Virus record (IMG/VR): IMGVR_UViG_3300021197_001105
Coordinates: 1 to 52,210 of that record
DNA from: a virus
Lineage: Duplodnaviria; Caudoviricetes
DNA: 52,210 nt
Direction: 5' to 3' (one strand)
The notes beneath the pieces were generated by a model. The model made no database searches. It saw only the letters and a program-made list of their open reading frames with translations, and was not told the DNA's origin. Positions 3-20,580 of the stretch are shown here, piece by piece. How positions within the stretch are numbered: position 1 is the stretch's first letter; the number at the start of each line of letters is the position of its first letter. The translations under genes and the position numbers were made by a program.

Positions 3-1286
3 GTGGCCAAAAGACCAAACGAAACAAGCGTCGAGGCAAATCTTCGCATGAACCCAGGAGGACAGGGGCTACCCCCAATGTCCTTCGGAGATCAAGACTT
101 CCTCGAGCAATATCTAATGCAGATGTTGGAGGCTCAGAATCTTCAAAGAGAAGATGACGAGGACGAAGAACAAACGTTCTTCCCAGAGGAACCGGGATAC
201 TTCCAACAAAACATCAGACCAAACATGATGGCTGGGTCGGATCCTGCTAAGGGTTTCGGGGATCTTCAAAGGTCTGCGAACTACTTTGGCCCGGGGGGTT
301 CGGATGCAGAGAATCGGATACTCTCAAGTCTACCAGATAGTAGTCTTCTTCCCAAGCCGGTCACGGACCAATTCCGAGAAGAAATGGGATATAACGATCA
401 AGAGAAAGACTTGCTTCGGATAGGTCGAGCACAAGCTGCGATGAATGAAGCACCAATGAATATTGATGCTCAACGCAGAAGTCTTGTAGAACAGAAGCAA
501 GACGAACTCAGAATGAATCAGTTTGATGCTCTTATGGAAGATTACAACCTTCCCGGTTACGAGGTCACCGGAAACATCGCCGGTAGTTACGGACCAGGGG
601 TTAGAAAAGTACAGGTTGAAAACACAGACGAACCTGACATGACTATCGCTGAGTTTATGGAAAGAAAGAAAGCAGGTTCTTTGGGCAAGAGCGGTGTTCG
701 GTCGATGACCCAGCCAACTAAGCCAGAACCTCAACAGCAACCTAAGCTACAATCTACCCATAAGGACAATGTAACTAAAAAGCCAAAGACTACTCCCACT
801 CCTGCTCCTGCAGATAAAAGAGGGGACTTCGCACCTCTTGAAGGGGAAACTTTTGCTGACTTCCAAGAAAGAACTAGTGCCTTAGATCCAAATGCAATCG
901 CATACCTGGATCCAGAATTTGCTAAGAAGTCTCAAAGGATTGACGATGCTTTCATTAGAAACATGGAAGCAAGAGGGTATGAAAAAGGAAGAGACTATGA
1001 CGCTCTTCCTAGTGACGGGGTAGAAGACTTCTCAAGAGAGATCTCTGAGGCCAAGCGTTACTTGAGGTCACAAAGAGATTATCTTGCAACCATAGATGAC
1101 GTGTCTAGTAAAGAAGGTCAAAGAGCCAGTAGGATGGTTATGGCATCTGAAAAAAGGCTAAGGGACGCAGAAAGAAAAAGAAAAGCTTTTGGTAACATGT
1201 CTCCTGCGGTGAGAGGTGCCATGAGGAATAGAGATAAACTTCTTGAGAAGTCATATGAATTAGGACCACTTGAAGAAGAGGATTGA
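3..1286 (+). CDS. Hypothetical protein, low-complexity and probably disordered (427 aa)
   Basis: Long ORF with a GTG start at the window edge (true start uncertain); its stop overlaps the next ATG (TGATG). Confidence 0.75.
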   Translation: MAKRPNETSVEANLRMNPGGQGLPPMSFGDQDFLEQYLMQMLEAQNLQREDDEDEEQTFFPEEPGYFQQNIRPNMMAGSDPAKGFGDLQRSANYFGPGGSDAENRILSSLPDSSLLPKPVTDQFREEMGYNDQEKDLLRIGRAQAAMNEAPMNIDAQRRSLVEQKQDELRMNQFDALMEDYNLPGYEVTGNIAGSYGPGVRKVQVENTDEPDMTIAEFMERKKAGSLGKSGVRSMTQPTKPEPQQQPKLQSTHKDNVTKKPKTTPTPAPADKRGDFAPLEGETFADFQERTSALDPNAIAYLDPEFAKKSQRIDDAFIRNMEARGYEKGRDYDALPSDGVEDFSREISEAKRYLRSQRDYLATIDDVSSKEGQRASRMVMASEKRLRDAERKRKAFGNMSPAVRGAMRNRDKLLEKSYELGPLEEED

Positions 1287-9532: not shown

Positions 9533-9765
9533 TGGCTAAAGAAGGTCTACGTAAATGGTTTGGCCGCAACAAAGGAACCGGTTGGGTTGACTGCAAAACC
9601 GGTAAGCCTTGCGGTCGTAAGTCCGCCAAAGGTAAATCCAAGAGAGCGTACCCCGCTTGTAGACCAACTAAGTCGCAGTGCACATCGGCTAGTAAAAGAA
9701 AGACAGGACCGGGAAGGGTCAACTGGAAGAAGAAGAAGACAACCACTAGGCGAAAGAAGAAGTAA
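9532..9765 (+). CDS. Small Lys-rich protein (GLRKWF...GKPCGR...YPACRP type)
   Basis: Motif pattern recurrent in aquatic phages; TAATG coupling. Confidence 0.75.
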   Translation: MAKEGLRKWFGRNKGTGWVDCKTGKPCGRKSAKGKSKRAYPACRPTKSQCTSASKRKTGPGRVNWKKKKTTTRRKKK

Positions 9766-10055
9766 TGGCTAAGAGAAAAGGAACCATGAAAGGGCACACG
9801 ATTAAAGGAGGACATAAGCGTTCTACTAAATCGGGTGCTGGCATGACTAAGAAAGGCGTTGCTAAATACCGGAAGGATAACCCCGGAAGCAAGCTCAAGA
9901 CAGCTGTTACTGGTAAGGTTAAAGCAGGTAGCAAAGCTGCAGGAAGAAGGAAGTCTTTCTGTGCTCGCATGAAAGGCGTAAAGGGTCCGATGAAAGATAG
10001 TAAAGGACGGCCTACTCGAAAGGCTGCTTCCCTAAAAAGATGGAGGTGTGGATGA
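9765..10055 (+). CDS. Small basic protein (resembles DUF6321)
   Basis: GMTKKGVAKYR..NPGSKLKTAV...RRKSFCARM motif. Confidence 0.75.
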   Translation: MAKRKGTMKGHTIKGGHKRSTKSGAGMTKKGVAKYRKDNPGSKLKTAVTGKVKAGSKAAGRRKSFCARMKGVKGPMKDSKGRPTRKAASLKRWRCG

Positions 10056-10591: not shown

Positions 10592-11485
10592 ATGCACAGT
10601 ACCGGATCATTCCTACTTACCGTAATTGAAAGAGTTCGTGCTTACCTAGACGAGGCCACCCTCGATGCTAAGTACACGAACGATTATCTGGTACGCCATG
10701 TTATCTGCCCAGAAATGGTAAATGTTCTGGCTCGTCTTAGGAACACGTTTGATAATCCAATTAGAATCCGTCACTCCATAACTCTGGAGAAGAGCACGGA
10801 ACATTACATCCTTCCTCCTAATGTCGGAGAGGTGTACCGGATTGCTATTCTTGACACAGAAAATCGTGTGACCCAGGAGATGAGTCCTCGTAATGAGTTC
10901 AATCCCCGAGGACCAAACTGGCAGCTTCAAGGGAACATGCTCTCGTTTCGCCCTCTACCCGGAGTTGGCCAAAGTGTGGATGTTCATTACATTCCAAACG
11001 GAGACTTCCAACCCCATTTTGATTCGGACGGGGGGAACCTTGCTTCTTCCACTACGTTTGTTTTTGATAATGCTCCTACTCTGGGGTCTGTAGACCGACG
11101 TGAAAATGCTTATGCGGGAGCAATCCTAAGAGTCTGGGATTCAAGTACAGATGTGATTGAAGAGCGTGTAATCAAATCCTACGTAGCTGACACAAGAACT
11201 GCTACGGTCCACATACCGTTTACCCATTCAACAGGAAGTGGTAGAAAGTACGAAGTTGCTCCTGTCGGAATGAACTCGTTGTACCAAGCCATAGCTTGTG
11301 CTTGTTCCATTAACTTGGGGACAGCTAGAAACATAACGCAGAAGCAGATGAATTTTATTCTTCTTCAATACAAGATGGCTATGAAGTCTGTGGGTGATAA
11401 TCTGTCTAACATGCAGGCACGGACTGGTAAGTTCTACGACAAGAAAACTGTAGATAACAATGCACAGTTGTTGTTGGGTGAGTAA
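10592..11485 (+). CDS. Head-tail adaptor / tail tubular A-like protein
   Basis: N-terminal 'IERVRAYLDE' helix, HYILPP, LSFRPLP...VHYIP and a C-terminal helical bundle; located after the capsid genes. Confidence 0.65.
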   Translation: MHSTGSFLLTVIERVRAYLDEATLDAKYTNDYLVRHVICPEMVNVLARLRNTFDNPIRIRHSITLEKSTEHYILPPNVGEVYRIAILDTENRVTQEMSPRNEFNPRGPNWQLQGNMLSFRPLPGVGQSVDVHYIPNGDFQPHFDSDGGNLASSTTFVFDNAPTLGSVDRRENAYAGAILRVWDSSTDVIEERVIKSYVADTRTATVHIPFTHSTGSGRKYEVAPVGMNSLYQAIACACSINLGTARNITQKQMNFILLQYKMAMKSVGDNLSNMQARTGKFYDKKTVDNNAQLLLGE

Positions 11486-12576
11486 TGAGTCAAGGAAGCC
11501 TAGGGGTCAATCCTAATAACCACGCCCTTTCCATATCCCTACAGACGGACATCAGTAGATCTCCAGACGGGCTAGAAGAGGAGAGGATTGGGTTTCTTAG
11601 AGAGCTTAGGTTCGAGGGGCCCCCAATGGCCGAGGGCTCGGGTAGTTCGGTTATGGGTGTTAATCCTGGATTCATGCGTCCGGGTAACGGATATCAAGGA
11701 AACACGGGAATAGGAATCCCCGGAAATCCTATTATTGAAACGCCACCCGTTGTTGGGACTCCACCTGAGCCACCTTCGTTCCCAATTGGAGGAGGAGGCA
11801 CAACACTCTCCTTCTCTACAGGCACCTTCAACAGTCCCAGTCCTCCTTCGTTTACTGAAACCTTTGTCAGTAGCTTTGCAGTTACTTCGGGGTCTCCTCC
11901 CCAGCCTCCTTCAGGACAGACAGGAACTGATGCTTCTGGAGATAGTTCAGGCTGGAACAATCCCCAAACCGAGGGAGGAGGGTTCCCTAATATCTTGCAG
12001 TTTGGTCCGGGCGGAGAAGAGACTGAACAACCAGAAGAACCAGAGAATGATCCTGATTGCGTAAACGGGTATATCCCACTTGAACAACCCTACAACGAGG
12101 GTGATCAAGCTCCTGATATGCAGAAACAGTTTGATCCCCTTAACCCAGATAGAACTCACCTATGCACTACGCCACAGTCATGCGGAGCTAATCTGTGCAC
12201 TGGTCTTCCGGTTATCGACTTCAAGAAACCTAACTTTGACGTAACAATTACCTGCGGAGGAAACACATTTACCTTCGACGATAGCGATCTAGTCGGACCA
12301 GACCAAGGACCAGGATCAGGTAATCCTTACTGGGAACACTACAACCAAACAAGCCAGCTTGGTCCCCCAAGACTCAATGTTCCAGTGGGAATGGAAGGTT
12401 GTGGTTGTGGAACCAACAACCCAATCATTGTCAATATTACTTGGGAATACGAGATAGAGTGCGACGGAGGAGGCAGCGTCTGTTGTTGCAAGACAATCCA
12501 AGGCGTTGAGGTGGGTCAGAACGGTAACTGCAAGATCTACGAAGACGAACAATACACGACGAGTAACTGCTGCTGA
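11485..12576 (+). CDS. Pro/Gly/Ser-rich protein with a Cys-rich C-terminal domain, probably virion-associated
   Basis: Translationally coupled on both sides within the tail module. Confidence 0.65.
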   Translation: MSQGSLGVNPNNHALSISLQTDISRSPDGLEEERIGFLRELRFEGPPMAEGSGSSVMGVNPGFMRPGNGYQGNTGIGIPGNPIIETPPVVGTPPEPPSFPIGGGGTTLSFSTGTFNSPSPPSFTETFVSSFAVTSGSPPQPPSGQTGTDASGDSSGWNNPQTEGGGFPNILQFGPGGEETEQPEEPENDPDCVNGYIPLEQPYNEGDQAPDMQKQFDPLNPDRTHLCTTPQSCGANLCTGLPVIDFKKPNFDVTITCGGNTFTFDDSDLVGPDQGPGSGNPYWEHYNQTSQLGPPRLNVPVGMEGCGCGTNNPIIVNITWEYEIECDGGGSVCCCKTIQGVEVGQNGNCKIYEDEQYTTSNCC

Positions 12577-13499
12577 TGAGAGATGATAGGCCAGAAGCCC
12601 ACTTCAATCTCAAAAGTAAACCTTCTTCTCCTCCTGAACCTCGAAACCGAGGAAACAAAAGAGACTTCTGTCTTTACTCGAGGGATAACAACAAGGTTGA
12701 CTTGAAGGATTTGTATTACGGTTCGAGCATCTTCTTGCTTTTGTCGGGCCCGTCTTTGTTGGATTCCCCGCTTGAGTGTTTGCGGGAGATAAATGCGTAC
12801 ACTTTCGGGGTCAACAACAGCTGGTCTGTGTACCGACCGACTTTCTGGACTTGCATGGACGGGGTAGAGAAGTTTCTCTCCGGAGGGTGGCGTGACCCCA
12901 GGATCACCAAGCTAATCCCCAACGGGAAACAGAACCACCAGCTCAGGACCAAAACAGATAAGGGGTTTTTCAACCTGTCGACTAAGGCAGGAGATTGTCC
13001 CGGGGTCCTCTACTACAACAGGAATCTGGAGTTCGATCCAACTACGTTTCTCACCGAGTCCACGGTTAACTGGGGTCAAGACGGGAAGACTCAGGATCTT
13101 CTAGGCATCAAAGGCTGTCGGAGCGTGATGCTGGCAGCCGTCCGGCTTTGCTATTACTTGGGGTTCAGGACTATCTATATGTTGGGGTGCGACTTCAATA
13201 TGACGCCCGGAAAACAGAACTATGCGTTCCCCCAAGACAGGTGGGATACTTCCATCCAAGGTAACAACAACACTTACGAAGGATTGAGGAGAAGATTTAA
13301 GGCTCTCCAATCCCACTTTGAAAACCACGGACTGAAGATCTTCAACTGTAACCCGGACAGTAAACTTGATACGATTAGGCATAAGCCCATAGAAGAGGCT
13401 TTGGAAGAATACTGTAATTCACTGCCTGAGATGGAAGACACCTTGGGCTGGTACGATAAAGAAAAAACAATAAAGACGGTTAGACGAAATGGCAAATGA
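12576..13499 (+). CDS. Maf/DUF115 (MptE-like) family putative glycosyltransferase
   Basis: IFLLLSGPSL, FGVNN, SVMLAAVRLCYYLGFRTIYMLGCDF and IFNCNPDSKL match the DUF115/Maf/CstII-like pattern. Confidence 0.75.
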   Translation: MRDDRPEAHFNLKSKPSSPPEPRNRGNKRDFCLYSRDNNKVDLKDLYYGSSIFLLLSGPSLLDSPLECLREINAYTFGVNNSWSVYRPTFWTCMDGVEKFLSGGWRDPRITKLIPNGKQNHQLRTKTDKGFFNLSTKAGDCPGVLYYNRNLEFDPTTFLTESTVNWGQDGKTQDLLGIKGCRSVMLAAVRLCYYLGFRTIYMLGCDFNMTPGKQNYAFPQDRWDTSIQGNNNTYEGLRRRFKALQSHFENHGLKIFNCNPDSKLDTIRHKPIEEALEEYCNSLPEMEDTLGWYDKEKTIKTVRRNGK

Positions 13500-16400
13500 G
13501 ATTTCAAGCAAGTGGTATTACCCCCTAACCGAGGTAAGTCAAGACAAGCGGGTAGCTCTTCCTGGTGTAAAGCCGGGGTACGCTTCCGAACTAGCTGGCT
13601 TTGACGGGCAGCTATCCGGGGGTCTTCGACCTTTCTCGGGGTTCAAGAATATCTACGATCTAGATATGCTCACCTCTGACGGGGGAACTACGGCCCACGC
13701 TGCTGATAGCGTGAACCTTACCTACCACAATACAAGCACCCATGTCACCGACTTCTTCCCTATTACATTCAACATCGACTTTGATACCTACGGCTATGGT
13801 TTTGTCTACCGAGCACAAAGACCCAACCAAGGCTCATCTGCTACATTCACTTTCAGTGGTGCAGTTGGTGTAAACGAAACTATCCAGATCATTGATAACT
13901 CAGGCACCCCAGTAACCAAGGTTTATAAAGCTGCGTCTAGCGGAACCAGTGGTACTGAATCCTCTGCTGTTTCTGCTACCGCAACTTTCACGTTTAACGC
14001 TGTTGCCCAGCTAGGCGGAACAATAACTCTCATTGGCTCCGCTGGTCTATCTAAGACATACATGGGATCTAACGACGACGCCGACTCTAATGGGACGGTA
14101 GACGCCACGGGTAACATCATCTTCAAGGTAGGTGCAAGCAACACAGACTCCTCTGCAAATCTCCGAACCGCAATCCTGGCCACCACCGGACACAATGGAG
14201 CGATCAGCGTAACTGACGATGGAGGAGGCAAACTAACCCTGACCCAAAACGACGGAGGACTTGACGCAACTCAAGGACTAGCGGGGAATAAAGCCATTGT
14301 GGTGTCGACAACGCCCGACTTCAATGAGAAGTGCAGCGTAAATCCTCCTTCGGCTTTTACGGGAGGCATCGACTCTTCAGTCATATTCCGAAACGATACA
14401 GGTGCTAATGAAAACGCAGCTGCTCTTAAGGTTGCAATTGAAGCAAGTTTAGGGCATAACAACACTGTTGCAGTTGAGGTAGTTGGAGCAAAAGTAACTC
14501 TTACCCAGGCTACTGTTGGTGAGTCCGGGGACACTGCAATTACCGTCTCAAGTAGTTGGAACAGTGCGTGCTCCGTCAATGTCCCCGCTAAGTTCACGGG
14601 TGGATCTACAACCGACAAGGCAGATATCTTCCTAGACTTCTACCTTGCTGAATGTGACGTGTATTCAACGGGCAATGTAATCAAAGCAAACATAAGTTCT
14701 ACGGAGCCTATGGATGTCGAGTCTACAGGTCGAATGGTATTCGTAGGTGTTCGGGGAGTAGATCCTATTCTGTTCTATGTGACAGAAGACCCTCCTGGGA
14801 TTGACGAGACAAGCACGTCACACAGTATTGGTTGCATTGCGGGTGGAGACTGCACCTCATCTTCGGATGGTAGTAGCTACTGTCCCGCTATTGCGTCTCT
14901 TACTTTTGACGCTGTAGTCCCTTCCACAAATATTATTACCTCTGTCAGTGAGAAGGGGATAATTGCAACAAGGACAAATTCCAAAGCAGAAGCAAGTTGG
15001 AAGTTTACGGAAAGGGCGGAAGAAGGAAGCGCAATACAAATAGAGTCTAGTGATGGAAGAAACATCTATTACAAAGCTAAGGGTGGAGCAACCAACGGAA
15101 CTATAGAATCATCAGGTGGGGTTGATTACGTTCTCTTTAACTCCGGAGCTACTGCATTTACTACAGGCCAGTTTACCTTTAGTGGTGCCATGCCTGCGAA
15201 TGAAACAATCAAACTCATCGACACAAACGGCAAAGAAAGAATCTACGAAGCCGCAGCCGGTGGTAGTCCCGCAGTTAAGGGTTCATCCGAGACCCAGGCA
15301 ACAGCTACCTTTACGTTTGAATTTAAAGCTGTAGAAGGAAGTACTCTGACTCTAACTGACAATTCTGCAAGTCCTGTTACTAGAATTTACAAGTGCATGA
15401 CGGACGCAGAAGAAACAGCGGGTACTTATGAAAACGGTCAAGTTGGAAATGAGGCTGATTCTTCTTTCTTGATGTTCAAGCGAGGAGACAGTCCTGCAAA
15501 TTCCGCAACTAATCTTGTAGCTGCAATCAATAATGCTGCAAACACAATAGGTATTACAGCTGCGGTAGCAACATCAACTACTGTCAACTTGACCCAAGAC
15601 ACAGCTGCTTTATCAACTGGTACGCTTGCCGATGGCAACACCAACGTGGGCTCTGGTTCTTCCTTCACAAACGCTTGCTCGGTTAATCCTCCGTCTGCCT
15701 TTACCGGGGGTGGGTTTACTGTTGAGTTTACGCGAGGCAGTAGTGCTGCGGACACAGCAGCTGGATTGAAAGCTGCGGTTATCAATGCTTTAGGCCATGA
15801 AAATACAATTGCTACAACATACACCCCCAGCAGTGCAAACTTGACTTTGACTCAGTCTGTGTATGACGGAACAAAGGGCGGAACTGCAATAGCTGTCAGT
15901 GGTAGTTGGAATGCAAACTGTTCCGTAAACCCTCCAAGTGCTTTTGGTGCAACCATCGTTGCGGCAACAGAAGCCACTGCCGCAGCTACGAACTTCAAGG
16001 CTGCTGTCGATAGTGCAAGCGGACACAACTCGACAGGGGGCTTTGGAACTACGACACTCACGTTTGATAATCAACCTGCAGCCGGATCTGAGATACAACT
16101 TATATCCAGTGTTGGCACGGATAAGACAGTTAATTACAAAGCAACAGCAACTCTTGAGTCAAATGGAACCCTGGATGGCACTGATGTTTTGTTCTACAAC
16201 GGATCAGGAAACACAGATGCGGGTAAGAATGAGGCAGCTTACTACCTGAGAAAAGCTATCAACTCTGCTAACGGACACAACGCAAGTCCGGCAAAAGCAA
16301 CGGCGACATTTAATTTCTTCGAGAATCCGGGCGAGGGACCGAAGGTTACAATCGTATCTACGGATGGAACTTCAAGGTTGTTTGAGTTCAGCACTGGAGG

Positions 16401-19400
16401 AGAGACTACAGGAGACGTTGGGGGCGGTAGTCAGATCTTTGTGGGGGTTTCTGCTAGTGCTTCTCCAGGTGTAGCCGCACAACAATTTGCTTCTGCAGTC
16501 AATTCTTCTAATGCGTTCGGGGGTTCTAGCCCAAAGATAATTGCTACTGTTTCAGCTAAGACTGTAACTCTTACCCAACAAACTGAAGGAGTTGCGGGTA
16601 ACTCGACTATCACTTACAACGTGGTTGCTTCGGGAAGTAAATTAGATTCCTATATTAATCCAGCACCTACCGCATTTAGCGGAGGAACCGTCGACTGGAA
16701 CGGAACTACACTAAACACAGAACAAAGACTATCTGTTGAAGAAGACATCGGTGTTGTAGGCAAACTTACCTTCCGTCAGCTCGAGACCACCTCGGGTGGT
16801 AATACAACAGTAACCACAGACTCTGCTATGAACACCGCTACAAGTGGAGGCGCAGTAGCTGACTTTGCCGGAGGGGGATCTGCTAGTACTTCATCGAACC
16901 TAAGATTCACGGTAACCGCCAACGGAAGTGGTACTGCTGGACAAGTAAATATGCAACAGTCCTTGGGTGATGCCCGAGGAAACAAACCTATATTTACTTT
17001 CTTTGGGTTTAACAACAATACAAGCCCACCTCCACCAGAGAGATTTGCTGGTGGCGGAACCATGCTAACCAACTCAACTATGACTCTTGTAGACGGGGAA
17101 GGTAACTCTCACATCTACATCTATGACAGGTCTTCTACAAACCAGAACGGAGATCAGGATACTGATGGTAGATATATCATTGGCATCCAAGAAGAACTCT
17201 CTCTCACAGAGCAAGTGAAGGCAACTGTACGAGTTATTGCAGCAGCGTCTGACAATACAAAAATAACTGCATACGCAATTAACGACAAGAAACTGGGACT
17301 GAAACAACTGGTATTAGGTACGGTTGGAAACACCTCAGTGGTTCTAAGCACTGATGCTGCAAAACTGATAACTAAGACTGACTTTACCGGGGGGGTTGGG
17401 CCGCAATCTGCAAGTGCAGCTACCTCTGTTGCAAGTGTTTCTTGTGCTGTCAGGCACAGCTTGGTAATAGAAGAAGAAACAGGGCCAGGTCCAAAGCCTT
17501 TGTTGGAAGGGCCATTCCAAGGTTGGCAAAACGCATACGTGGTTGATACTCCTTCTCCTGTCACTGTGCCATCTAATGCTCGTTTGATCTTCTCGGTGAC
17601 AGCACCTAACTCAGGAATCTACAAGAGTATTGGAGAACCTCTCTTTGACGGGGGATACACAATTGACAGTGTCCTTTATAACGGAGGAACCAACGCTGAG
17701 ATTGTAGAGACCTACAACCAAATCCAAATTGCTAACAACAACCAGAACGATGCGGTGTACGGTTTCATTGATTGCGACTTTGATTACGGAGGAGAGGCAG
17801 GAGACGGGGACGAAGTTCCTGAAACAGAGAATGACGGGAACTCTGGAACGGATGTTGATGACCCTACTTGCTCCGAGCTTTTGGAGCTTGCTATTCCACA
17901 CATTGGAATTTCTCCGGGAGGAGTTGTAAATCCTGGTCCAGATCCCTTTGCCAGTCCAAACAAACAAGCTGTTAGACGAACGATTTGTAACTACAAACTC
18001 AACTCAATAACAGATGGTAACCAAGTAAACCAACTTCCAATTATCGAGATCTTTACGTACACGTTTGCGCAAGGAAACAATCCTTCGCATGAGTTTAAGA
18101 TCTGGAATTGCAAAATGGATATCTACGTTAGAAAGAAGAACGACGCAGAAAATCCTTTTGTCGAGGGAACGAACAACCCAGAAGGTTATGGAAACTTTCA
18201 GCTTGCAGCTACCAACGTCAATCTCAAGATTGACGAGAAGAAACGAAATGAGATGTATACGTACGTTTCAAACTCCAAGGGAGGAAAGTTTGCCCAGTTT
18301 GTTCCTAACGGAGGAAGAGACATTGTGTTGGTGAACGAGGAAGCCAAGTCGTTTGCAACTGCAGCTGGGTATACCGATACTGAAAAGGGAGGTAACAGTC
18401 ATGCGAACTGCTACATAACCCACTTCAATATGGCCTCGGTCTTTGGGTGCGATAACTTCTCAGCGGGGGAGTATCAGGTCCAGGTTGTATGGCGAACGAT
18501 GTGCTGTGAGCCAGTGCAAAACAAGTCCAGTGAAATCATCACGTTCACCGTAGATCCTGCAATCTGCGAGTTTGAGGGTGAGGGAGAAGAGAAACAAGTT
18601 TCTGACTTGAAGAGACTAAAAAAAGGAAACTATGTATTTTCCTATGTTCTCTACGACAGTAAGACCGGAAGACGATCTGCACTCACCGAAGTACTCACTG
18701 TAAAGGAAGAAGATTTTACAGCCGACGAGAACTTTGCTTTCATTGATCTGGTGTACGACAAGACAAAGTATGATCACGCATACTTCTACCGTTCTGTAAA
18801 CACACAGGACGCAGGAGGAGTTAGCGTTGCTGGTGTGTTGAGCTTGGATCGAATTGCAAAACTCCAAGACTACATCATTGACGGCAACCAGCCAACTAAC
18901 ACAGACTATAGAAGAGCTGTGTATCCCTACAAACTTGAAGATATGTCTATCTTGTATCAGCCCACGTACAGGACGGAGACGCCTGTCTTTGACGAGAAGA
19001 TGCCAGCTGGGGGCAGTATGCTTTGGTACGGCAACACTCTCCTGGTGTCCCGTATCAAGAACGCAGGGGCGTCCTCGTCGACAGAAGAAAGAATCGAAGA
19101 CGTACAGCGGGGAATAGGAGAGCTTAGGTGGTCATCTATGATGGAGAACTCTCCTGAGATGTTCTCTCCTTTTAACCGGTACGTTCCCGTGGTTCCTTCA
19201 AACGAGATCATTGCACTCAAGACTCTTGGGGATGTGGTCTATGGATTCAGTCGAGATCGTGCTTACAACATCCGCAAAGACAGTGGAATGGGTATTGCCT
19301 TCATGAAGGTAATGGACCTGCACGAAGGCTTTGGAACCACAGGAGCCAACTCACTGGAGGGTGTGGGTTCTTCTATGTACTACATGACTCCAAAGGGGGT

Positions 19401-20580
19401 CAAAGCTCTGAACACTAAGGGGCAGCTAGACGACGTTCGTGCGTTCGACCACCACATTTCTACCTACTGGCCACGCGATCTGAGTAATGTCCATATGTCT
19501 TACGACCCGACAGGCTCAGTTATGTTCATCCTTGACCCGAGTAAGGAAGAAGTCCTCTGCCTTTGGTTCAACACAGGCAAGTCTACGATGCTCAAGGACA
19601 TGTCATTCACCCAAGTCAAGAAGGGTCCATGGCCAAACAACCCAGATATAAGATCCGACGAGCTTGTAGACCGTGCCATGTTCCTTCAGAATCCCCCCTC
19701 CGAAACAGGTGCTCAGGGCTTCAAGCCCCGGATCTACTCCCACGACTACAAGTACGAGAGAACCATTGCCGGTTCAGGTACATCTGCATTCAACGGTAAG
19801 ACTCGCTTAACCCTGATGGACGGCCAAGGAGATACCCGATTCTCTACGCATGGTTCCGTGTCCTCCAAGGTTCTAACCATCGACAACGCAGATGGAACAA
19901 AGGTTTCCAATGCCTGGGTTGGAGGTTATGTGTATGTCATGGATTCTTCGACCTCCTCTTACATTGGCAAGAAATCTAAGATCATCAAGATTGTTACTCC
20001 AGACATAGATGAGATAGGTGCGGGAGGGGTAGACGCTTCATCAAAGGCGGTACTTACGCTTGCTGACGCCACTCTAGATAGTCTCCCCGCTGGTTCTCGC
20101 GTCTGTGTGTCGCCTGTCTACATGCGGTGGATTGGCCACAATATTGGACTGAACTCAGAAGAAGGCACGCAGTTCGGGTCTTCAAACGACTACCACACCC
20201 TGAAGCATATGGACTCTTTGGAGGTGGCATTTACCGATGTGGTTGGGCCTCCCTCAACGGATAGTTCTAAGGATGCCAGATATAGCGGGCTGGCATTCAA
20301 AGGCTCTAACCCAACTCCGGTAGATAACCGATTCCCAACGGACCTCAACAACGCAAAGGTCCAGTCGGTACAAGACAACGAGTCTGTCAATGCAGTAGCA
20401 TTCGGGGAAGATACGGCAGCGGCTCTGGCGATGCAGGGTATGCACGGAGTCAAGGGATCTTCGATAGCTCCGGGGCTAGAAGTCATATGTCCAGACTTGG
20501 ATTTCAGGCTTCTATCAGGTATTGTTATAGGCAAGGTTCTACCCACAACCAGGAACACCAGACCGAACGTAGGAATGTGA
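13489..20580 (+). CDS. Giant tail nozzle / stabilisation-like protein (2363 aa) with nested repeat domains
   Basis: C-terminal beta-propeller-like segments (GELRWSS, EIIALKTLGDVVYGFS, GFGTTGANSL, MYYMTPKGV) as in P22 gp10 / T7 gp12-like proteins; eight internal ATxTF...F(T/A/S)GG domains. Confidence 0.75.
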   Translation: MANEISSKWYYPLTEVSQDKRVALPGVKPGYASELAGFDGQLSGGLRPFSGFKNIYDLDMLTSDGGTTAHAADSVNLTYHNTSTHVTDFFPITFNIDFDTYGYGFVYRAQRPNQGSSATFTFSGAVGVNETIQIIDNSGTPVTKVYKAASSGTSGTESSAVSATATFTFNAVAQLGGTITLIGSAGLSKTYMGSNDDADSNGTVDATGNIIFKVGASNTDSSANLRTAILATTGHNGAISVTDDGGGKLTLTQNDGGLDATQGLAGNKAIVVSTTPDFNEKCSVNPPSAFTGGIDSSVIFRNDTGANENAAALKVAIEASLGHNNTVAVEVVGAKVTLTQATVGESGDTAITVSSSWNSACSVNVPAKFTGGSTTDKADIFLDFYLAECDVYSTGNVIKANISSTEPMDVESTGRMVFVGVRGVDPILFYVTEDPPGIDETSTSHSIGCIAGGDCTSSSDGSSYCPAIASLTFDAVVPSTNIITSVSEKGIIATRTNSKAEASWKFTERAEEGSAIQIESSDGRNIYYKAKGGATNGTIESSGGVDYVLFNSGATAFTTGQFTFSGAMPANETIKLIDTNGKERIYEAAAGGSPAVKGSSETQATATFTFEFKAVEGSTLTLTDNSASPVTRIYKCMTDAEETAGTYENGQVGNEADSSFLMFKRGDSPANSATNLVAAINNAANTIGITAAVATSTTVNLTQDTAALSTGTLADGNTNVGSGSSFTNACSVNPPSAFTGGGFTVEFTRGSSAADTAAGLKAAVINALGHENTIATTYTPSSANLTLTQSVYDGTKGGTAIAVSGSWNANCSVNPPSAFGATIVAATEATAAATNFKAAVDSASGHNSTGGFGTTTLTFDNQPAAGSEIQLISSVGTDKTVNYKATATLESNGTLDGTDVLFYNGSGNTDAGKNEAAYYLRKAINSANGHNASPAKATATFNFFENPGEGPKVTIVSTDGTSRLFEFSTGGETTGDVGGGSQIFVGVSASASPGVAAQQFASAVNSSNAFGGSSPKIIATVSAKTVTLTQQTEGVAGNSTITYNVVASGSKLDSYINPAPTAFSGGTVDWNGTTLNTEQRLSVEEDIGVVGKLTFRQLETTSGGNTTVTTDSAMNTATSGGAVADFAGGGSASTSSNLRFTVTANGSGTAGQVNMQQSLGDARGNKPIFTFFGFNNNTSPPPPERFAGGGTMLTNSTMTLVDGEGNSHIYIYDRSSTNQNGDQDTDGRYIIGIQEELSLTEQVKATVRVIAAASDNTKITAYAINDKKLGLKQLVLGTVGNTSVVLSTDAAKLITKTDFTGGVGPQSASAATSVASVSCAVRHSLVIEEETGPGPKPLLEGPFQGWQNAYVVDTPSPVTVPSNARLIFSVTAPNSGIYKSIGEPLFDGGYTIDSVLYNGGTNAEIVETYNQIQIANNNQNDAVYGFIDCDFDYGGEAGDGDEVPETENDGNSGTDVDDPTCSELLELAIPHIGISPGGVVNPGPDPFASPNKQAVRRTICNYKLNSITDGNQVNQLPIIEIFTYTFAQGNNPSHEFKIWNCKMDIYVRKKNDAENPFVEGTNNPEGYGNFQLAATNVNLKIDEKKRNEMYTYVSNSKGGKFAQFVPNGGRDIVLVNEEAKSFATAAGYTDTEKGGNSHANCYITHFNMASVFGCDNFSAGEYQVQVVWRTMCCEPVQNKSSEIITFTVDPAICEFEGEGEEKQVSDLKRLKKGNYVFSYVLYDSKTGRRSALTEVLTVKEEDFTADENFAFIDLVYDKTKYDHAYFYRSVNTQDAGGVSVAGVLSLDRIAKLQDYIIDGNQPTNTDYRRAVYPYKLEDMSILYQPTYRTETPVFDEKMPAGGSMLWYGNTLLVSRIKNAGASSSTEERIEDVQRGIGELRWSSMMENSPEMFSPFNRYVPVVPSNEIIALKTLGDVVYGFSRDRAYNIRKDSGMGIAFMKVMDLHEGFGTTGANSLEGVGSSMYYMTPKGVKALNTKGQLDDVRAFDHHISTYWPRDLSNVHMSYDPTGSVMFILDPSKEEVLCLWFNTGKSTMLKDMSFTQVKKGPWPNNPDIRSDELVDRAMFLQNPPSETGAQGFKPRIYSHDYKYERTIAGSGTSAFNGKTRLTLMDGQGDTRFSTHGSVSSKVLTIDNADGTKVSNAWVGGYVYVMDSSTSSYIGKKSKIIKIVTPDIDEIGAGGVDASSKAVLTLADATLDSLPAGSRVCVSPVYMRWIGHNIGLNSEEGTQFGSSNDYHTLKHMDSLEVAFTDVVGPPSTDSSKDARYSGLAFKGSNPTPVDNRFPTDLNNAKVQSVQDNESVNAVAFGEDTAAALAMQGMHGVKGSSIAPGLEVICPDLDFRLLSGIVIGKVLPTTRNTRPNVGM

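What the first reader, a model, noticed from the sequence alone, without database searches (positions are those of the whole stretch)
13834..17394. Recursive 'matryoshka' domain tree in the giant tail protein
Seen: eight copies of a ~110-140 aa module (ATATFTF...TI.L.D...Y...F..G...A.NL..AI...GHN...LTLTQ...GN..I...CSVNPPSAFTGG). They are not tandem; each is inserted into a loop of another copy, and the interrupted copy resumes at the next expected motif. My parse: D1 (13834-14604) contains D2 (13966-14367). D3 (14887-17394) contains D4 (14980-17058). D4 contains two branches: D5 (15160-15954), which holds D6 (15292-15711), and D7 (16036-16878), which holds D8 (16288-16686). Nesting reaches four levels and uses several different loops. 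Established: nested insertion is known in contractile sheath proteins and flagellin outer domains. Inference: the module has adjacent N and C termini, so it can self-insert and build a branched appendage on a podovirus nozzle from one polypeptide, perhaps replacing tail fibres (no separate fibre gene recognised). I do not know this architecture from any nozzle protein.
Basis: partly seen in the sequence, partly recalled or inferred. Interest (0 to 1): 0.9.

Follow-up and report, generated by a model that had tools for sequence, protein, structure and literature searches.

The report
Nested domain tree on phage nozzle
A giant tail protein of an uncultured short-tailed phage carries eight copies of one small domain spliced into each other like Russian dolls, a real and unusually deep case of a way of building proteins already known from RNA polymerase, phage sheaths and flagellins.

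Summary
Confirmed.

- **Sequence test.** A profile built only from uninterrupted modules hits every interrupted module as partial matches. Their profile coordinates resume where they stopped.
- **Rejoining test.** Rejoined pieces score end to end as one domain. Reversed-order and shuffled controls do not.
- **Conservation.** An automatic stack rule parses 6 of 10 relatives as well nested.
- **Structure predictions.** The three pieces of D4 are predicted to assemble into one domain. D3 aligns as one compact domain in the AlphaFold2 model.
- **Module fold.** It most resembles phage sheath outer domains, flagellin and FliD outer domains and the T7 nozzle tip, at middling scores (Z 9.3-6.8). The module has no Pfam or PHROG family but occurs in at least 662 protein clusters.
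- **Base.** A 927-aa module-free relative exists. It looks like a podophage nozzle β-propeller, but on a poor model.
- **Function.** A surface appendage is inferred. Replacement of tail fibres is untested.
- **Precedent.** Homotypic recursive insertion is published for cyanobacterial RNA polymerase SI3.

Verdict: a new variant of a known kind.

The parts
13489..20580 (+). Whole gene for the giant tail (nozzle-family) protein, 2363 aa plus stop
   Evidence: ORF list and translation. Full-length homologues at 39-57% identity.
13489..13824 (+). Base part 1 (aa 1-112), conserved N-terminus that ends in a hairpin strand ('YGYGFVYR')
   Evidence: Aligns with aa 9-119 of the module-free 927-aa homologue in L005. 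Many invariant columns.
13825..13959 (+). D1 N-piece (aa 113-157), strands 1-3
   Evidence: HMM hit 114-155, profile positions 2-43.
13966..14367 (+). D2 (aa 160-293), uninterrupted module inserted in D1 after strand 3
   Evidence: Full HMM hit 1-128, 130.4 bits.
14368..14604 (+). D1 C-piece (aa 294-372), strand 4, helix and strands 5-8
   Evidence: HMM hit 295-372, profile 48-128. Rejoined D1 scores 104.5 bits as one domain.
14617..14886 (+). Base part 2 (aa 377-466), resumes the base hairpin ('ADIFLDFYL...')
   Evidence: aa 402-452 align with aa 152-197 of the L005 homologue.
14887..14922 (+). D3 N-piece (aa 467-478), strand 1 only
   Evidence: Strand at model residues 9-19. Structural alignments begin at model residues 2-12 and end at 847-866: 5 rows and 21 of 50 rows. 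Adds only 2.5 bits by HMM.
14980..15159 (+). D4 N-piece (aa 498-557), strands 1-4
   Evidence: HMM hit 498-558, profile 2-61. Predicted to pack with the two other D4 pieces.
15160..15279 (+). D5 N-piece (aa 558-597), strands 1-3
   Evidence: HMM hit 559-593, profile 5-39.
15289..15711 (+). D6 (aa 601-741), uninterrupted module inserted in D5 after strand 3
   Evidence: Full HMM hit 2-128. Model residues 147-287 match sheath, flagellin and FliD outer domains.
15712..15951 (+). D5 C-piece (aa 742-821)
   Evidence: HMM hit 745-819, profile 51-125. Rejoined D5 scores 81.2 bits.
15952..16041 (+). D4 middle piece (aa 822-851), the helix ending in 'GHN'
   Evidence: HMM hit 827-849, profile 57-79. 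Helix at model residues 371-387 with pLDDT about 85. Contacts.
16042..16287 (+). D7 N-piece (aa 852-933), strands 1-4 and helix
   Evidence: HMM hit 853-933, profile 4-79.
16288..16686 (+). D8 (aa 934-1066), uninterrupted module inserted in D7 after 'GHN'
   Evidence: Full HMM hit 2-128. Model residues 479-615 match the sheath outer domain of 8kee_A: Z 9.3, rmsd 2.3 A, 92 aligned residues.
16687..16875 (+). D7 C-piece (aa 1067-1129)
   Evidence: HMM hit 1090-1129, profile 89-128. Rejoined D7 scores 65.1 bits.
16876..17058 (+). D4 C-piece (aa 1130-1190)
   Evidence: HMM hit 1145-1189, profile 84-128. It was the scored partner chain in the assembly prediction.
17059..17394 (+). D3 C-piece (aa 1191-1302), strands 2-8 and helix
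   Evidence: HMM hit 1195-1302, profile 17-128.
17395..18582 (+). Further extra region (aa 1303-1698), Cys-rich, not the module, absent from the 927-aa homologue
   Evidence: No counterpart in the L005 protein. No module HMM hit. Fold not examined.
18583..20577 (+). Base part 3 (aa 1699-2363), most conserved part of the family
   Evidence: Aligns with aa 265-919 of the L005 homologue at 30% identity, E 1.7e-89. The base model's fold matches are led by podophage nozzle chains.

Best explanation
The gene encodes a tail nozzle-family protein of an uncultured short-tailed phage.

Core and additions. Its β-propeller-type core is about 900 aa, and relatives have the core on its own. Two surface loops of the core have been expanded with eight copies of one α/β module of about 130 aa: strands 1-4, one helix, strands 5-8, ending in '...FTGG'.

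How the copies are joined. Each copy sits in a loop of another copy, not end to end. The result is a two-module twig (D1 holding D2) and a six-module branched bough: D3 holds D4, and D4 holds both D5 (with D6) and D7 (with D8). Every child is tied to its parent by two nearby chain crossings. That should make a jointed, branched projection rather than a floppy string.

How it grew. The tree grew partly by copying whole nested units. D1 and D5 are mutually closest, and so are D2 and D6.

Inferred, not shown. The protein forms a hexamer under the adaptor, as T7 gp12 does, giving 48 modules around the tail tip. The modules face outwards and act as an adhesion or spacer decoration that touches the host surface. 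Sheath outer domains and flagellin outer domains of similar fold are likewise exposed, variable and dispensable for the core assembly.
For: Shown by sequence:
- Partial profile hits are complementary for all five interrupted modules.
- Rejoined pieces score as single end-to-end domains; reversed-order joins split for four of the five interrupted modules (not D3), and shuffles score at most 0.4 bits.
- An automatic stack rule parses 6 of 10 family proteins as well nested.
- Module number varies across the family. There are none in the 927-aa protein of L005 and in the 915-1043-aa nozzle-family ORFs of L016, L048, L050 and L057, nor in the ORF of L049, which runs off the end of its locus. There are about 4 in L004, 8 here, and 10 or more in P0008 and L003.
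- D1-D5 share 46% identity and D2-D6 39%, each a mutual best match.

Predicted structure:
- AlphaFold2 model of aa 455-1320: mean pLDDT 71.4. It gives the same order of secondary-structure elements in whole and in interrupted modules.
- D3 aligns as one compact domain. The model range is about 9..850, with 70-103 aligned residues and Z 4.0-7.0, in 5 rows and 21 of 50 rows.
- The three D4 pieces (498-557, 822-851, 1130-1190), given as separate chains, are predicted to assemble. Score 0.67, best of 3 controls 0.08. That mark was reached by 58 of 80 solved complexes and 2 of 110 mismatched pairs. The runs agree in at least 87% of contacts and the partner's pLDDT is at least 72. My own alignment was used and the job is unlike the calibration. 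Strand 1 (502-506) pairs with 1151-1155, and 514-517 pairs with 1168-1174. This pass may partly reflect likeness to solved sheath and flagellin domains.

Module fold: sheath 8kee_A Z 9.3; PhiTE 8.3; Mu 8.1; FliC 4nx9 8.0; P-SCSP1u nozzle 7.8; FliD about 7; T7 gp12 residues 146-247 6.8.

Base:
- 14 of the 16 Foldseek hits at E <= 1e-3 are podophage tail chains (A4, VP1, HRP29, E1004, SU10, T7, Pa223, PhiM1, crAss001).
- VIA top rows are Pa223 at Z 13.1, crAss001 muzzle at 12.5 and VP1 at 12.0.
- The gene lies downstream of terminase and of a weak SU10-adaptor match.
Against: - No coordinates were available, so I measured no contact map and no distance between module ends.
- The nesting of D1, D5 and D7 rests on sequence and on secondary-structure order. 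D7 has only weak Ig-like alignments, Z 3.2-3.5.
- D3's first strand adds only 2.5 bits.
- The stack rule failed on 4 of 10 relatives (P0007, L002, P0008, L003), because weak pieces were missed or other domains intervene.
- Module fold scores are middling. Only 2 of 48,161 chains reach Z >= 8, and the tool says best Z of 7-8 is typical even without a true relative.
- The base model is poor, with pLDDT 40.2. Generic WD40 propellers score Z 10-11, close to the nozzle chains.
- No Pfam, PHROG or PDB sequence match supports nozzle membership.
- Hexamer formation, exposure and adhesion are inference only.
Confidence: 0.75

Rival explanations
1. The motif order reflects a linear chain of smaller units (strand-hairpin units and helix-sheet units) that pair with whichever neighbour is nearest. 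That would be a domain-swapped or beads-on-a-string array, not true discontinuous nested domains.
For: I could inspect no coordinates. For D1, D5 and D7 only sequence complementarity and secondary-structure order were available. pTM of the model is 0.44.
Against: - Contiguous A-B-C stretches have the same length and layout as single-module proteins of 156-260 aa in the wider family, so they should fold on their own, which leaves the outer pieces to pair with each other.
- The D4 pieces are predicted to assemble: score 0.67, best control 0.08; the mark was reached by 58 of 80 solved complexes and 2 of 110 mismatched pairs; own alignment used and job unlike the calibration.
- D3 aligns as one domain across 840 residues of chain.
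- Resume coordinates match for all five interrupted modules.
Confidence: 0.07
2. The carrier is not the nozzle. It is another β-propeller-containing tail component, for example a fibre-anchoring hub or a receptor-binding protein of its own kind.
For: - No sequence family match.
- The base model has pLDDT 40.2.
- Unrelated propellers score nearly as high as nozzle chains.
- The adaptor hit upstream is below Pfam's cut-off, 20.7 against 27 bits.
- Two unassigned genes lie between it and the giant gene.
Against: - 14 of 16 Foldseek hits at E <= 1e-3 are podophage nozzle, tail-hub or muzzle chains, and they also lead the VIA list.
- The size of the bare relatives, 915-1043 aa, is in the range of the nozzle chains hit, 772-1005 aa.
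- The order terminase ... adaptor ... this gene ... large unassigned ORFs of 552, 710 and 1283 aa resembles the T7 order. That resemblance is recalled, not tested.
Confidence: 0.2
3. The module tree is the phage's main receptor-binding organ and stands in for tail fibres or spikes.
For: - No ORF in the window matched a fibre or spike family in the 27 ORFs scanned.
- The module occurs only in this ORF, 1 of 307 six-frame ORFs of 60 aa or more.
- Module number differs between relatives, as host-range parts often do.
Against: - Most structural ORFs have no family match at all, so absence of a fibre annotation carries little weight.
- The two ORFs between adaptor and nozzle, 11485-12576 and 12576-13499, are unassigned or only weakly assigned. 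ORF 11485-12576 found only a 69-aa match (in L006) among the six related loci searched, which would suit a variable receptor-binding gene.
- No binding site or ligand is known for the module.
Confidence: 0.2
4. My own side idea. The sialyltransferase/Maf-like gene just upstream (12576-13499) O-glycosylates the Ser/Thr-rich, flagellin-outer-domain-like modules, as Maf enzymes do for flagellins.
For: - phrog_4603 sialyltransferase, E 4.3e-9.
- PF01973 matches weakly in 6 of 6 homologues, best E 1.2e-4, below the cut-off.
- PF01973 is the Maf_flag10 domain of flagellin nonulosonic-acid transferases (bioRxiv 10.1101/2020.06.03.131540, passages).
- The gene sits directly upstream of the decorated gene in L002, L003, L004, L006 and L007, and is absent from the bare-nozzle locus L005.
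- Modules are 24-25% Ser+Thr, against 13-21% in the other regions.
Against: - Of 32 viral loci with this gene and at least 3 kb downstream, only 3 hold a module-bearing ORF, and those are the same contigs as L002-L004.
- Five others hold a nozzle-family ORF without modules.
- In the remaining 24, neither was detected.
The gene is therefore not tied to the modules.
Confidence: 0.08

Closest known systems
SI3 insertion of cyanobacterial RNA polymerase β' (nested sandwich-barrel hybrid / HABAS domains)
   Same: Recursive insertion of many copies of one small domain type into each other, with bifurcating nodes. Eight domains in a 6-level nest are described for Prochlorococcus rpoC2 (PMC13114784, passages read).
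   Different: A different fold and a cellular enzyme rather than a virion protein. Here the module is an α/β barrel-plus-helix domain, the host is a phage tail protein, and the depth is four module levels, or five counting the base.
Contractile tail sheath proteins (T4 gp18 domains I in II in III; outer domains of A-1(L), Milano, PhiTE, Mu and E217 sheaths)
   Same: Nested insertion: gp18 domain I (98-188) lies in II (88-97, 189-345), which lies in III (24-87, 346-510). Domain I is a six-stranded β-barrel plus a helix (PMC3004832, passages). These outer domains are the best structural matches of the module: 8kee_A Z 9.3, rmsd 2.3 A, 92 aligned residues.
   Different: In gp18 the three nested domains have different folds. 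Here one fold recurs eight times and branches. There is no sequence similarity, and the scores are middling.
Flagellin and FliD outer domains (D2/D3)
   Same: Exposed, variable domains inserted in the middle of the chain. Campylobacter FlaA D2 and D3 are structural homologues of each other (PMC8306008, passages). Structural matches: FliC 4nx9 Z 8.0, V. cholerae FlaD Z 8.3, FliD Z about 7.
   Different: No sequence match to any flagellin family or to any other Pfam family. The carrier is a phage tail protein. The nest here is deeper and made of one module type.
Podophage nozzle / tail-hub proteins (T7 gp12, SU10 nozzle, P22 gp10, crAss001 muzzle)
   Same: The base model's best fold matches, and a similar gene position. 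T7 gp12 itself has a nozzle-tip domain that leaves from a propeller loop (PMC6702177, passages). That region (aa 146-247) resembles the module at Z 6.8.
   Different: No sequence-level membership. At 2363 aa the protein is far larger than the podophage nozzle chains matched (772-1005 aa; the crAss001 muzzle chain is 1361 aa). None of the nozzle papers I searched or read describes repeated self-nested modules.

Membership tests
Nested (discontinuous) domain insertion architecture | The interrupted domain's pieces are complementary parts of one domain profile and flank a complete inserted domain | tested here: met
   All five interrupted modules show it. Rejoined pieces score as one end-to-end domain; reversed-order joins split for four of the five (not D3) and shuffles score at most 0.4 bits.
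Nested (discontinuous) domain insertion architecture | The pieces physically pack into one compact domain | tested here: inconclusive
   Predicted for D4: score 0.67, best control 0.08; 58 of 80 solved complexes and 2 of 110 mismatched pairs reach the mark; own alignment used and job unlike the calibration. Predicted for D3 from alignment ranges of about 9..850. D1, D5 and D7 were not tested in 3D. No coordinates or experiment.
T7 gp12 / P22 gp10-type podophage nozzle (tail tubular protein B) | Central β-propeller fold like solved nozzle chains | tested here: inconclusive
   The model of the 927-aa bare relative has pLDDT 40.2, with four-strand blade patterns at 498-626. 14 of 16 Foldseek hits at E <= 1e-3 are phage tail chains. 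In VIA, nozzle chains score Z 13.1-11 but WD40 propellers score 10-11.
T7 gp12 / P22 gp10-type podophage nozzle (tail tubular protein B) | Sequence match to a curated nozzle family | tested here: not met
   No Pfam or PHROG family for the whole protein. No tblastn hit in 50,697 phage records. No PDB sequence hit. I therefore do not file it as a sequence-family member, only as nozzle-like.
T7 gp12 / P22 gp10-type podophage nozzle (tail tubular protein B) | Gene downstream of the adaptor in the structural module | tested here: inconclusive
   PF24175 SU10_adaptor matches 10592-11485 at E 6.2e-4, 20.7 bits, below the 27-bit cut-off. Two unassigned ORFs intervene.
T7 gp12 / P22 gp10-type podophage nozzle (tail tubular protein B) | Hexamer forming the DNA channel under the adaptor | not testable with these tools
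   Needs a virion structure.
Sheath domain I / flagellin-FliD outer-domain fold (for the module) | Small β-barrel with one helix, structurally superposable | tested here: inconclusive
   Best Z 9.3 (8kee_A, rmsd 2.3 A, 92 aligned). Only 2 of 48,161 chains reach Z >= 8, and the tool notes that best Z of 7-8 is common without kinship. The top rows are consistently sheath, flagellin, FliD and nozzle-tip domains.
Sheath domain I / flagellin-FliD outer-domain fold (for the module) | Sequence homology to flagellin or sheath families | tested here: not met
   Eight modules scanned against Pfam at E <= 10 gave only four unrelated single-member hits. The profile against PDB sequences gave only profilin (E 0.016) and a designed barrel.

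The most novel reading that the evidence does not exclude
The module belongs to a large, unnamed, virus-borne domain family with a built-in tendency to insert into copies of itself. Such a family could grow branched protein 'trees' from a single chain by copying whole nested units. In this phage the resulting 48-module bush around the nozzle (8 per chain, 6 chains) would be the host-recognition organ and would do the job of tail fibres.
Probability: 0.2. Interest if true: 0.75.

Novelty: new variant of a known kind. Interest (0 to 1): 0.55.

Why it matters
- **A natural example for protein design.** One small fold is both host and guest at four different loops, to a depth of four, with branching, on a virion protein. 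That bears on how far domain insertion can be pushed and on how phage tails acquire surface ornaments.
- **An unnamed family.** The module profile finds 662 cluster representatives at E <= 1e-3 among 1.84 billion. The nine members sampled and the giant protein itself have no Pfam or PHROG family for the module.
- **Self-nesting recurs.** By my rule it appears in 28 of the 155 proteins I held, 20 of them outside the first family rows, although some of those are fragments of the same nozzle family.
- **A natural experiment.** Bare and decorated relatives exist side by side, which allows a test of what the ornament does.
- **Limits.** The principle of homotypic recursive insertion is already in print for RNA polymerase SI3, and the function here is unknown.

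Tried and rejected
**Searches that found nothing**
- Pfam and PHROGs on the whole protein: no family.
- tblastn against 50,697 phage records: no match.
- blastp of the protein against itself returned only the identity hit. Windowed blastp was needed to see the repeats.
- PDB sequence searches with the family profile, the bare homologue and the module profile: nothing meaningful.
- Pfam on 8 modules at E <= 10: noise only.

**Weak or uninformative results**
- Foldseek of the 866-aa model against PDB: no hit at E <= 1e-3, only weak flagellin, FliD and sheath rows. VIA was needed.
- AlphaFold2 of the 927-aa bare homologue gave a poor model, pLDDT 40.2, so its fold matches are leads only.
- Atlas look-ups gave only unnamed viral clusters. 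One had a 33% share of crAss_MUZ at score 0.91, and one crAss_AuxCP at 0.89.
- Cluster names for 10 module-bearing proteins: none informative.

**Ideas tested and dropped**
- The extra ORFs after the bare nozzle in L005 (211 and 398 aa) look Gln-rich and coiled, not fibre-like, and have no counterpart in the window.
- The glycosyltransferase-module link was tested and not supported: 3 of 32 loci.

**Literature**
- Paper searches for nested insertion in nozzle or tail proteins found no description of this architecture.
- One search found the RNA polymerase precedent.
- The Milano paper (PMC10811340, passages) held nothing on the sheath-flagellin likeness.

**Not available**
- Supplementary files of papers were not consulted.

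Full report
**What the window is.** The window is a complete 52,210-bp IMG/VR virus record. It carries a large terminase (phrog_38, E 1.4e-44), a family-A-type DNA polymerase, a primase/helicase, an exonuclease and a Sak4-like annealing protein. Most structural ORFs have no family match. ORF 10592-11485 matches the SU10 adaptor weakly (PF24175, E 6.2e-4, below the cut-off). The gene in question is 13489-20580 (+), 2363 aa. It has no Pfam or PHROG family and no tblastn hit among 50,697 deposited phage records.

Windowed blastp showed many internal similarities between aa 113 and 1318. By eye the repeats break into three motifs:
- A, 'ATFTF..TI.L.D..G....Y'.
- B, 'F..G.....A.NL..AI...GHN'.
- C, 'LTQ...G..GN..I......CSVNPPSAFTGG'.

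Their order forms a balanced bracket string.

To test this objectively I built an HMM from 18 uninterrupted modules (D2, D6 and D8 of six family proteins). On the protein it gives three full hits and ten partial hits. For every interrupted module the partial hits stop and resume at matching profile positions:

| Module | Pieces (profile positions) |
|---|---|
| D1 | 2-43, then 48-128 |
| D5 | 5-39, then 51-125 |
| D7 | 4-79, then 89-128 |
| D4 | 2-61, then 57-79, then 84-128 |
| D3 | 17-128 (first strand not detected) |

I then rebuilt the HMM without this protein's rows and scored rejoined modules. Each scores as one end-to-end domain of 36-105 bits. Reversed-order joins split into two or three partial domains for D1, D4, D5 and D7; D3 stays a single hit (33.6 against 36.1 bits). 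Shuffles score at most 0.4 bits.

**Conservation and variation.** Six full-length homologues (39-57% identity, 2263-3548 aa) and further viral loci were scanned.
- A simple stack rule parses 6 of 10 family proteins as well nested: this protein, P0003-P0006 and L004.
- It fails on P0007 and L002, where one weak N-piece is missed.
- It fails on P0008 and L003, which are larger, hold other domains, and show runs such as N,N,N,full,C,C,C that imply deeper nests.
- One relative, in L005, is 927 aa and has no module. Its residues 9-119, 152-197 and 265-919 align with aa 6-109, 402-452 and 1699-2353 here.
- Five more loci hold nozzle-family ORFs without modules: four are complete at 915-1043 aa, and one runs off the end of its locus.

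The two trees are therefore additions in two loops of a core of about 900 aa. The first sits in a hairpin between 'YGYGFVYR' and 'ADIFLDFYL'. A further non-module region, aa 1303-1698, follows the second tree.

There are no DNA repeats longer than 29 nt in the gene, so the copies are old and not an assembly artefact. D1 and D5 (46% identity) and D2 and D6 (39%) are mutual best matches. Blast alignments also run across the D1/D2 and D5/D6 junctions. This suggests that a nested pair was copied as a unit.

**Structure predictions.**
- *Model of aa 455-1320.* AlphaFold2 with a 7-row alignment gave mean pLDDT 71.4 and pTM 0.44. The tool returns no coordinates, so I could not compute contacts.
- *Secondary structure.* The order is the same in whole modules and, across the gaps, in interrupted ones: four strands, a helix, then three or four strands.
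- *D3.* Structural alignments treat D3 as one compact domain. Model ranges begin at residues 2-12 and end at 847-866, with 70-103 aligned residues, in 5 rows (Z 5.0-7.0, including three Sphingomonas flagellin entries) and 21 of 50 rows (Z 4.0-5.3).
- *D7.* It appears only in six weak Ig-like rows at Z 3.2-3.5.
- *D4.* I gave its three pieces as separate chains to the complex predictor. Score 0.67, best of 3 controls 0.08. That mark was reached by 58 of 80 solved complexes and 2 of 110 mismatched pairs. The runs agree in at least 87% of contacts and the partner's pLDDT is at least 72. My own alignment was used, and a three-piece job differs from the calibration. The closest contacts interleave strands from the first and last pieces (502-506 with 1151-1155; 514-517 with 1168-1174), and the helix touches both. 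Because the fold resembles solved domains, the pass may owe something to that likeness.

They do so directly only for D3 and D4.

**What the module is.** The search without a Foldseek pre-filter (48,161 chains) and the second look at Foldseek's list agree.

| Match | Z |
|---|---|
| Sheath outer domain, A-1(L) 8kee_A (rmsd 2.3 A, 92 aligned) | 9.3 |
| PhiTE sheath | 8.3 |
| Mu sheath | 8.1 |
| P. aeruginosa FliC | 8.0 |
| P-SCSP1u nozzle, aa 148-240 | 7.8 |
| FliD D2-D3 | about 7 |
| T7 gp12, aa 146-247 | 6.8 |
| T4 gp11 | 6.0 |

These scores are middling by the tool's own yardstick, so I call this a fold resemblance and not kinship. There is no sequence link.

The module profile finds 662 cluster representatives at E <= 1e-3 among 1.84 billion, and 223 at E <= 1e-10. 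They range from 86 to 3950 aa. Nine sampled members have no Pfam or PHROG family for the module.

BFVD matches include predicted 'baseplate J-like', 'tail sheath' and 'tail tubular protein B' proteins. Atlas neighbours are small viral hypothetical proteins. By my rule, 28 of the 155 proteins held show at least one nested signature, although some are fragments of this same family. Within the window the module occurs only in this ORF.

**What the carrier is.** The model of the bare 927-aa relative is poor, with pLDDT 40.2. Even so, 14 of its 16 Foldseek hits at E <= 1e-3 are podophage tail chains: A4, VP1, HRP29, E1004, SU10, T7, Pa223, PhiM1 and the crAss001 muzzle. Such chains also lead the VIA list (Z 13.1-11), just ahead of generic propellers at Z 10-11. 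Taken with the gene order, I read the protein as nozzle-like with moderate confidence. I do not file it as a member of a curated nozzle family.

**Mechanism.**
- *Shown:* eight homologous modules; complementary pieces; conservation; variable module number, including none.
- *Predicted:* D3 and D4 fold as discontinuous domains; the module fold is a barrel plus a helix.
- *Inferred:* a hexamer, outward exposure, and an adhesion or spacer role, by analogy with sheath and flagellin outer domains. Those are exposed and variable (PMC3004832 and PMC8306008, passages).

**Comparison with what is known.**
- Nested insertion is known in T4 gp18 and in flagellins.
- Recursive insertion of one domain type, with branching, is described for cyanobacterial RNA polymerase β' SI3: eight domains, six levels (PMC13114784, passages).
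- T7 gp12 already sends a tip domain out of a propeller loop (PMC6702177, passages).
- New here are the fold, the carrier, and the family-wide habit of self-nesting.
- My four searches aimed at tails and nozzles found no description of it. Supplements were not seen.

**Side test.** The upstream ORF 12576-13499 resembles sialyltransferases and Maf enzymes weakly. It accompanies the decorated gene in five related loci but not in L005. However, among 32 loci with this gene and enough downstream DNA, only 3 hold modules, and 5 hold module-free nozzle-family ORFs. I dropped the idea that it is tied to the modules.

**Verdict.** The carrier is probably a nozzle. The function is unknown, and the fibre-replacement idea is untested. 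This is a new variant of a known kind, of moderate interest.

Noticed in passing
L005:9977-12757 (+); also L016:10951-14079, L048:12385-15129, L050:12385-15129, L057:11407-14217: Module-free relatives of the giant protein (915-1043 aa) exist in other viral contigs. Family size runs from 915 to about 3726 aa, depending on how many modules are inserted.
   Followed up: partly
window 13825-14604 and 15160-15951: The nested pair D1[D2] resembles the nested pair D5[D6] as a unit. D1-D5 share 46% identity and D2-D6 39%, each a mutual best match, and blast alignments cross the junctions. This suggests that whole nested units were duplicated.
   Followed up: partly
window 14332-14334, 14569-14571, 15676-15678, 15919-15921 (Cys 282, 361, 730, 811): Only the two parent-child pairs D1/D2 and D5/D6 keep a Cys in the closing motif 'CSVNPP', one per module. 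D3, D4, D7 and D8 have none. A disulfide between parent and child is conceivable but untested.
   Followed up: no
window 17395-18582 (aa 1303-1698): A second kind of extra region follows the module tree. It is Cys-rich, is not the module, and is absent from the 927-aa relative. Its fold was not examined.
   Followed up: no
window 12576-13499 (+): A 307-aa ORF overlaps the start of the giant gene. It has weak sialyltransferase / Maf_flag10 (PF01973) likeness and is found in 59 IMG/VR loci. It is often upstream of nozzle-family genes, with or without modules, so it is not specific to the modules.
   Followed up: yes
window 14914-14979 (aa 476-497): A stretch of about 22 aa in the D3-to-D4 linker is present only in this protein among the close relatives (alignment gap). 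It is predicted disordered: pLDDT is below 50 at model residues 22-44.
   Followed up: no
window 9765-10055 (+): A small ORF between the presumed capsid and adaptor genes matches DUF6321 (PF19846, E 4.6e-19). It is one of the few confident family hits in the structural region.
   Followed up: no
window 11485-12576 (+): The 363-aa ORF between adaptor and nozzle has almost no counterpart in related loci, only 69 aa in L006, while its neighbours are conserved. Such a variable gene at this position could be a receptor-binding protein.
   Followed up: partly
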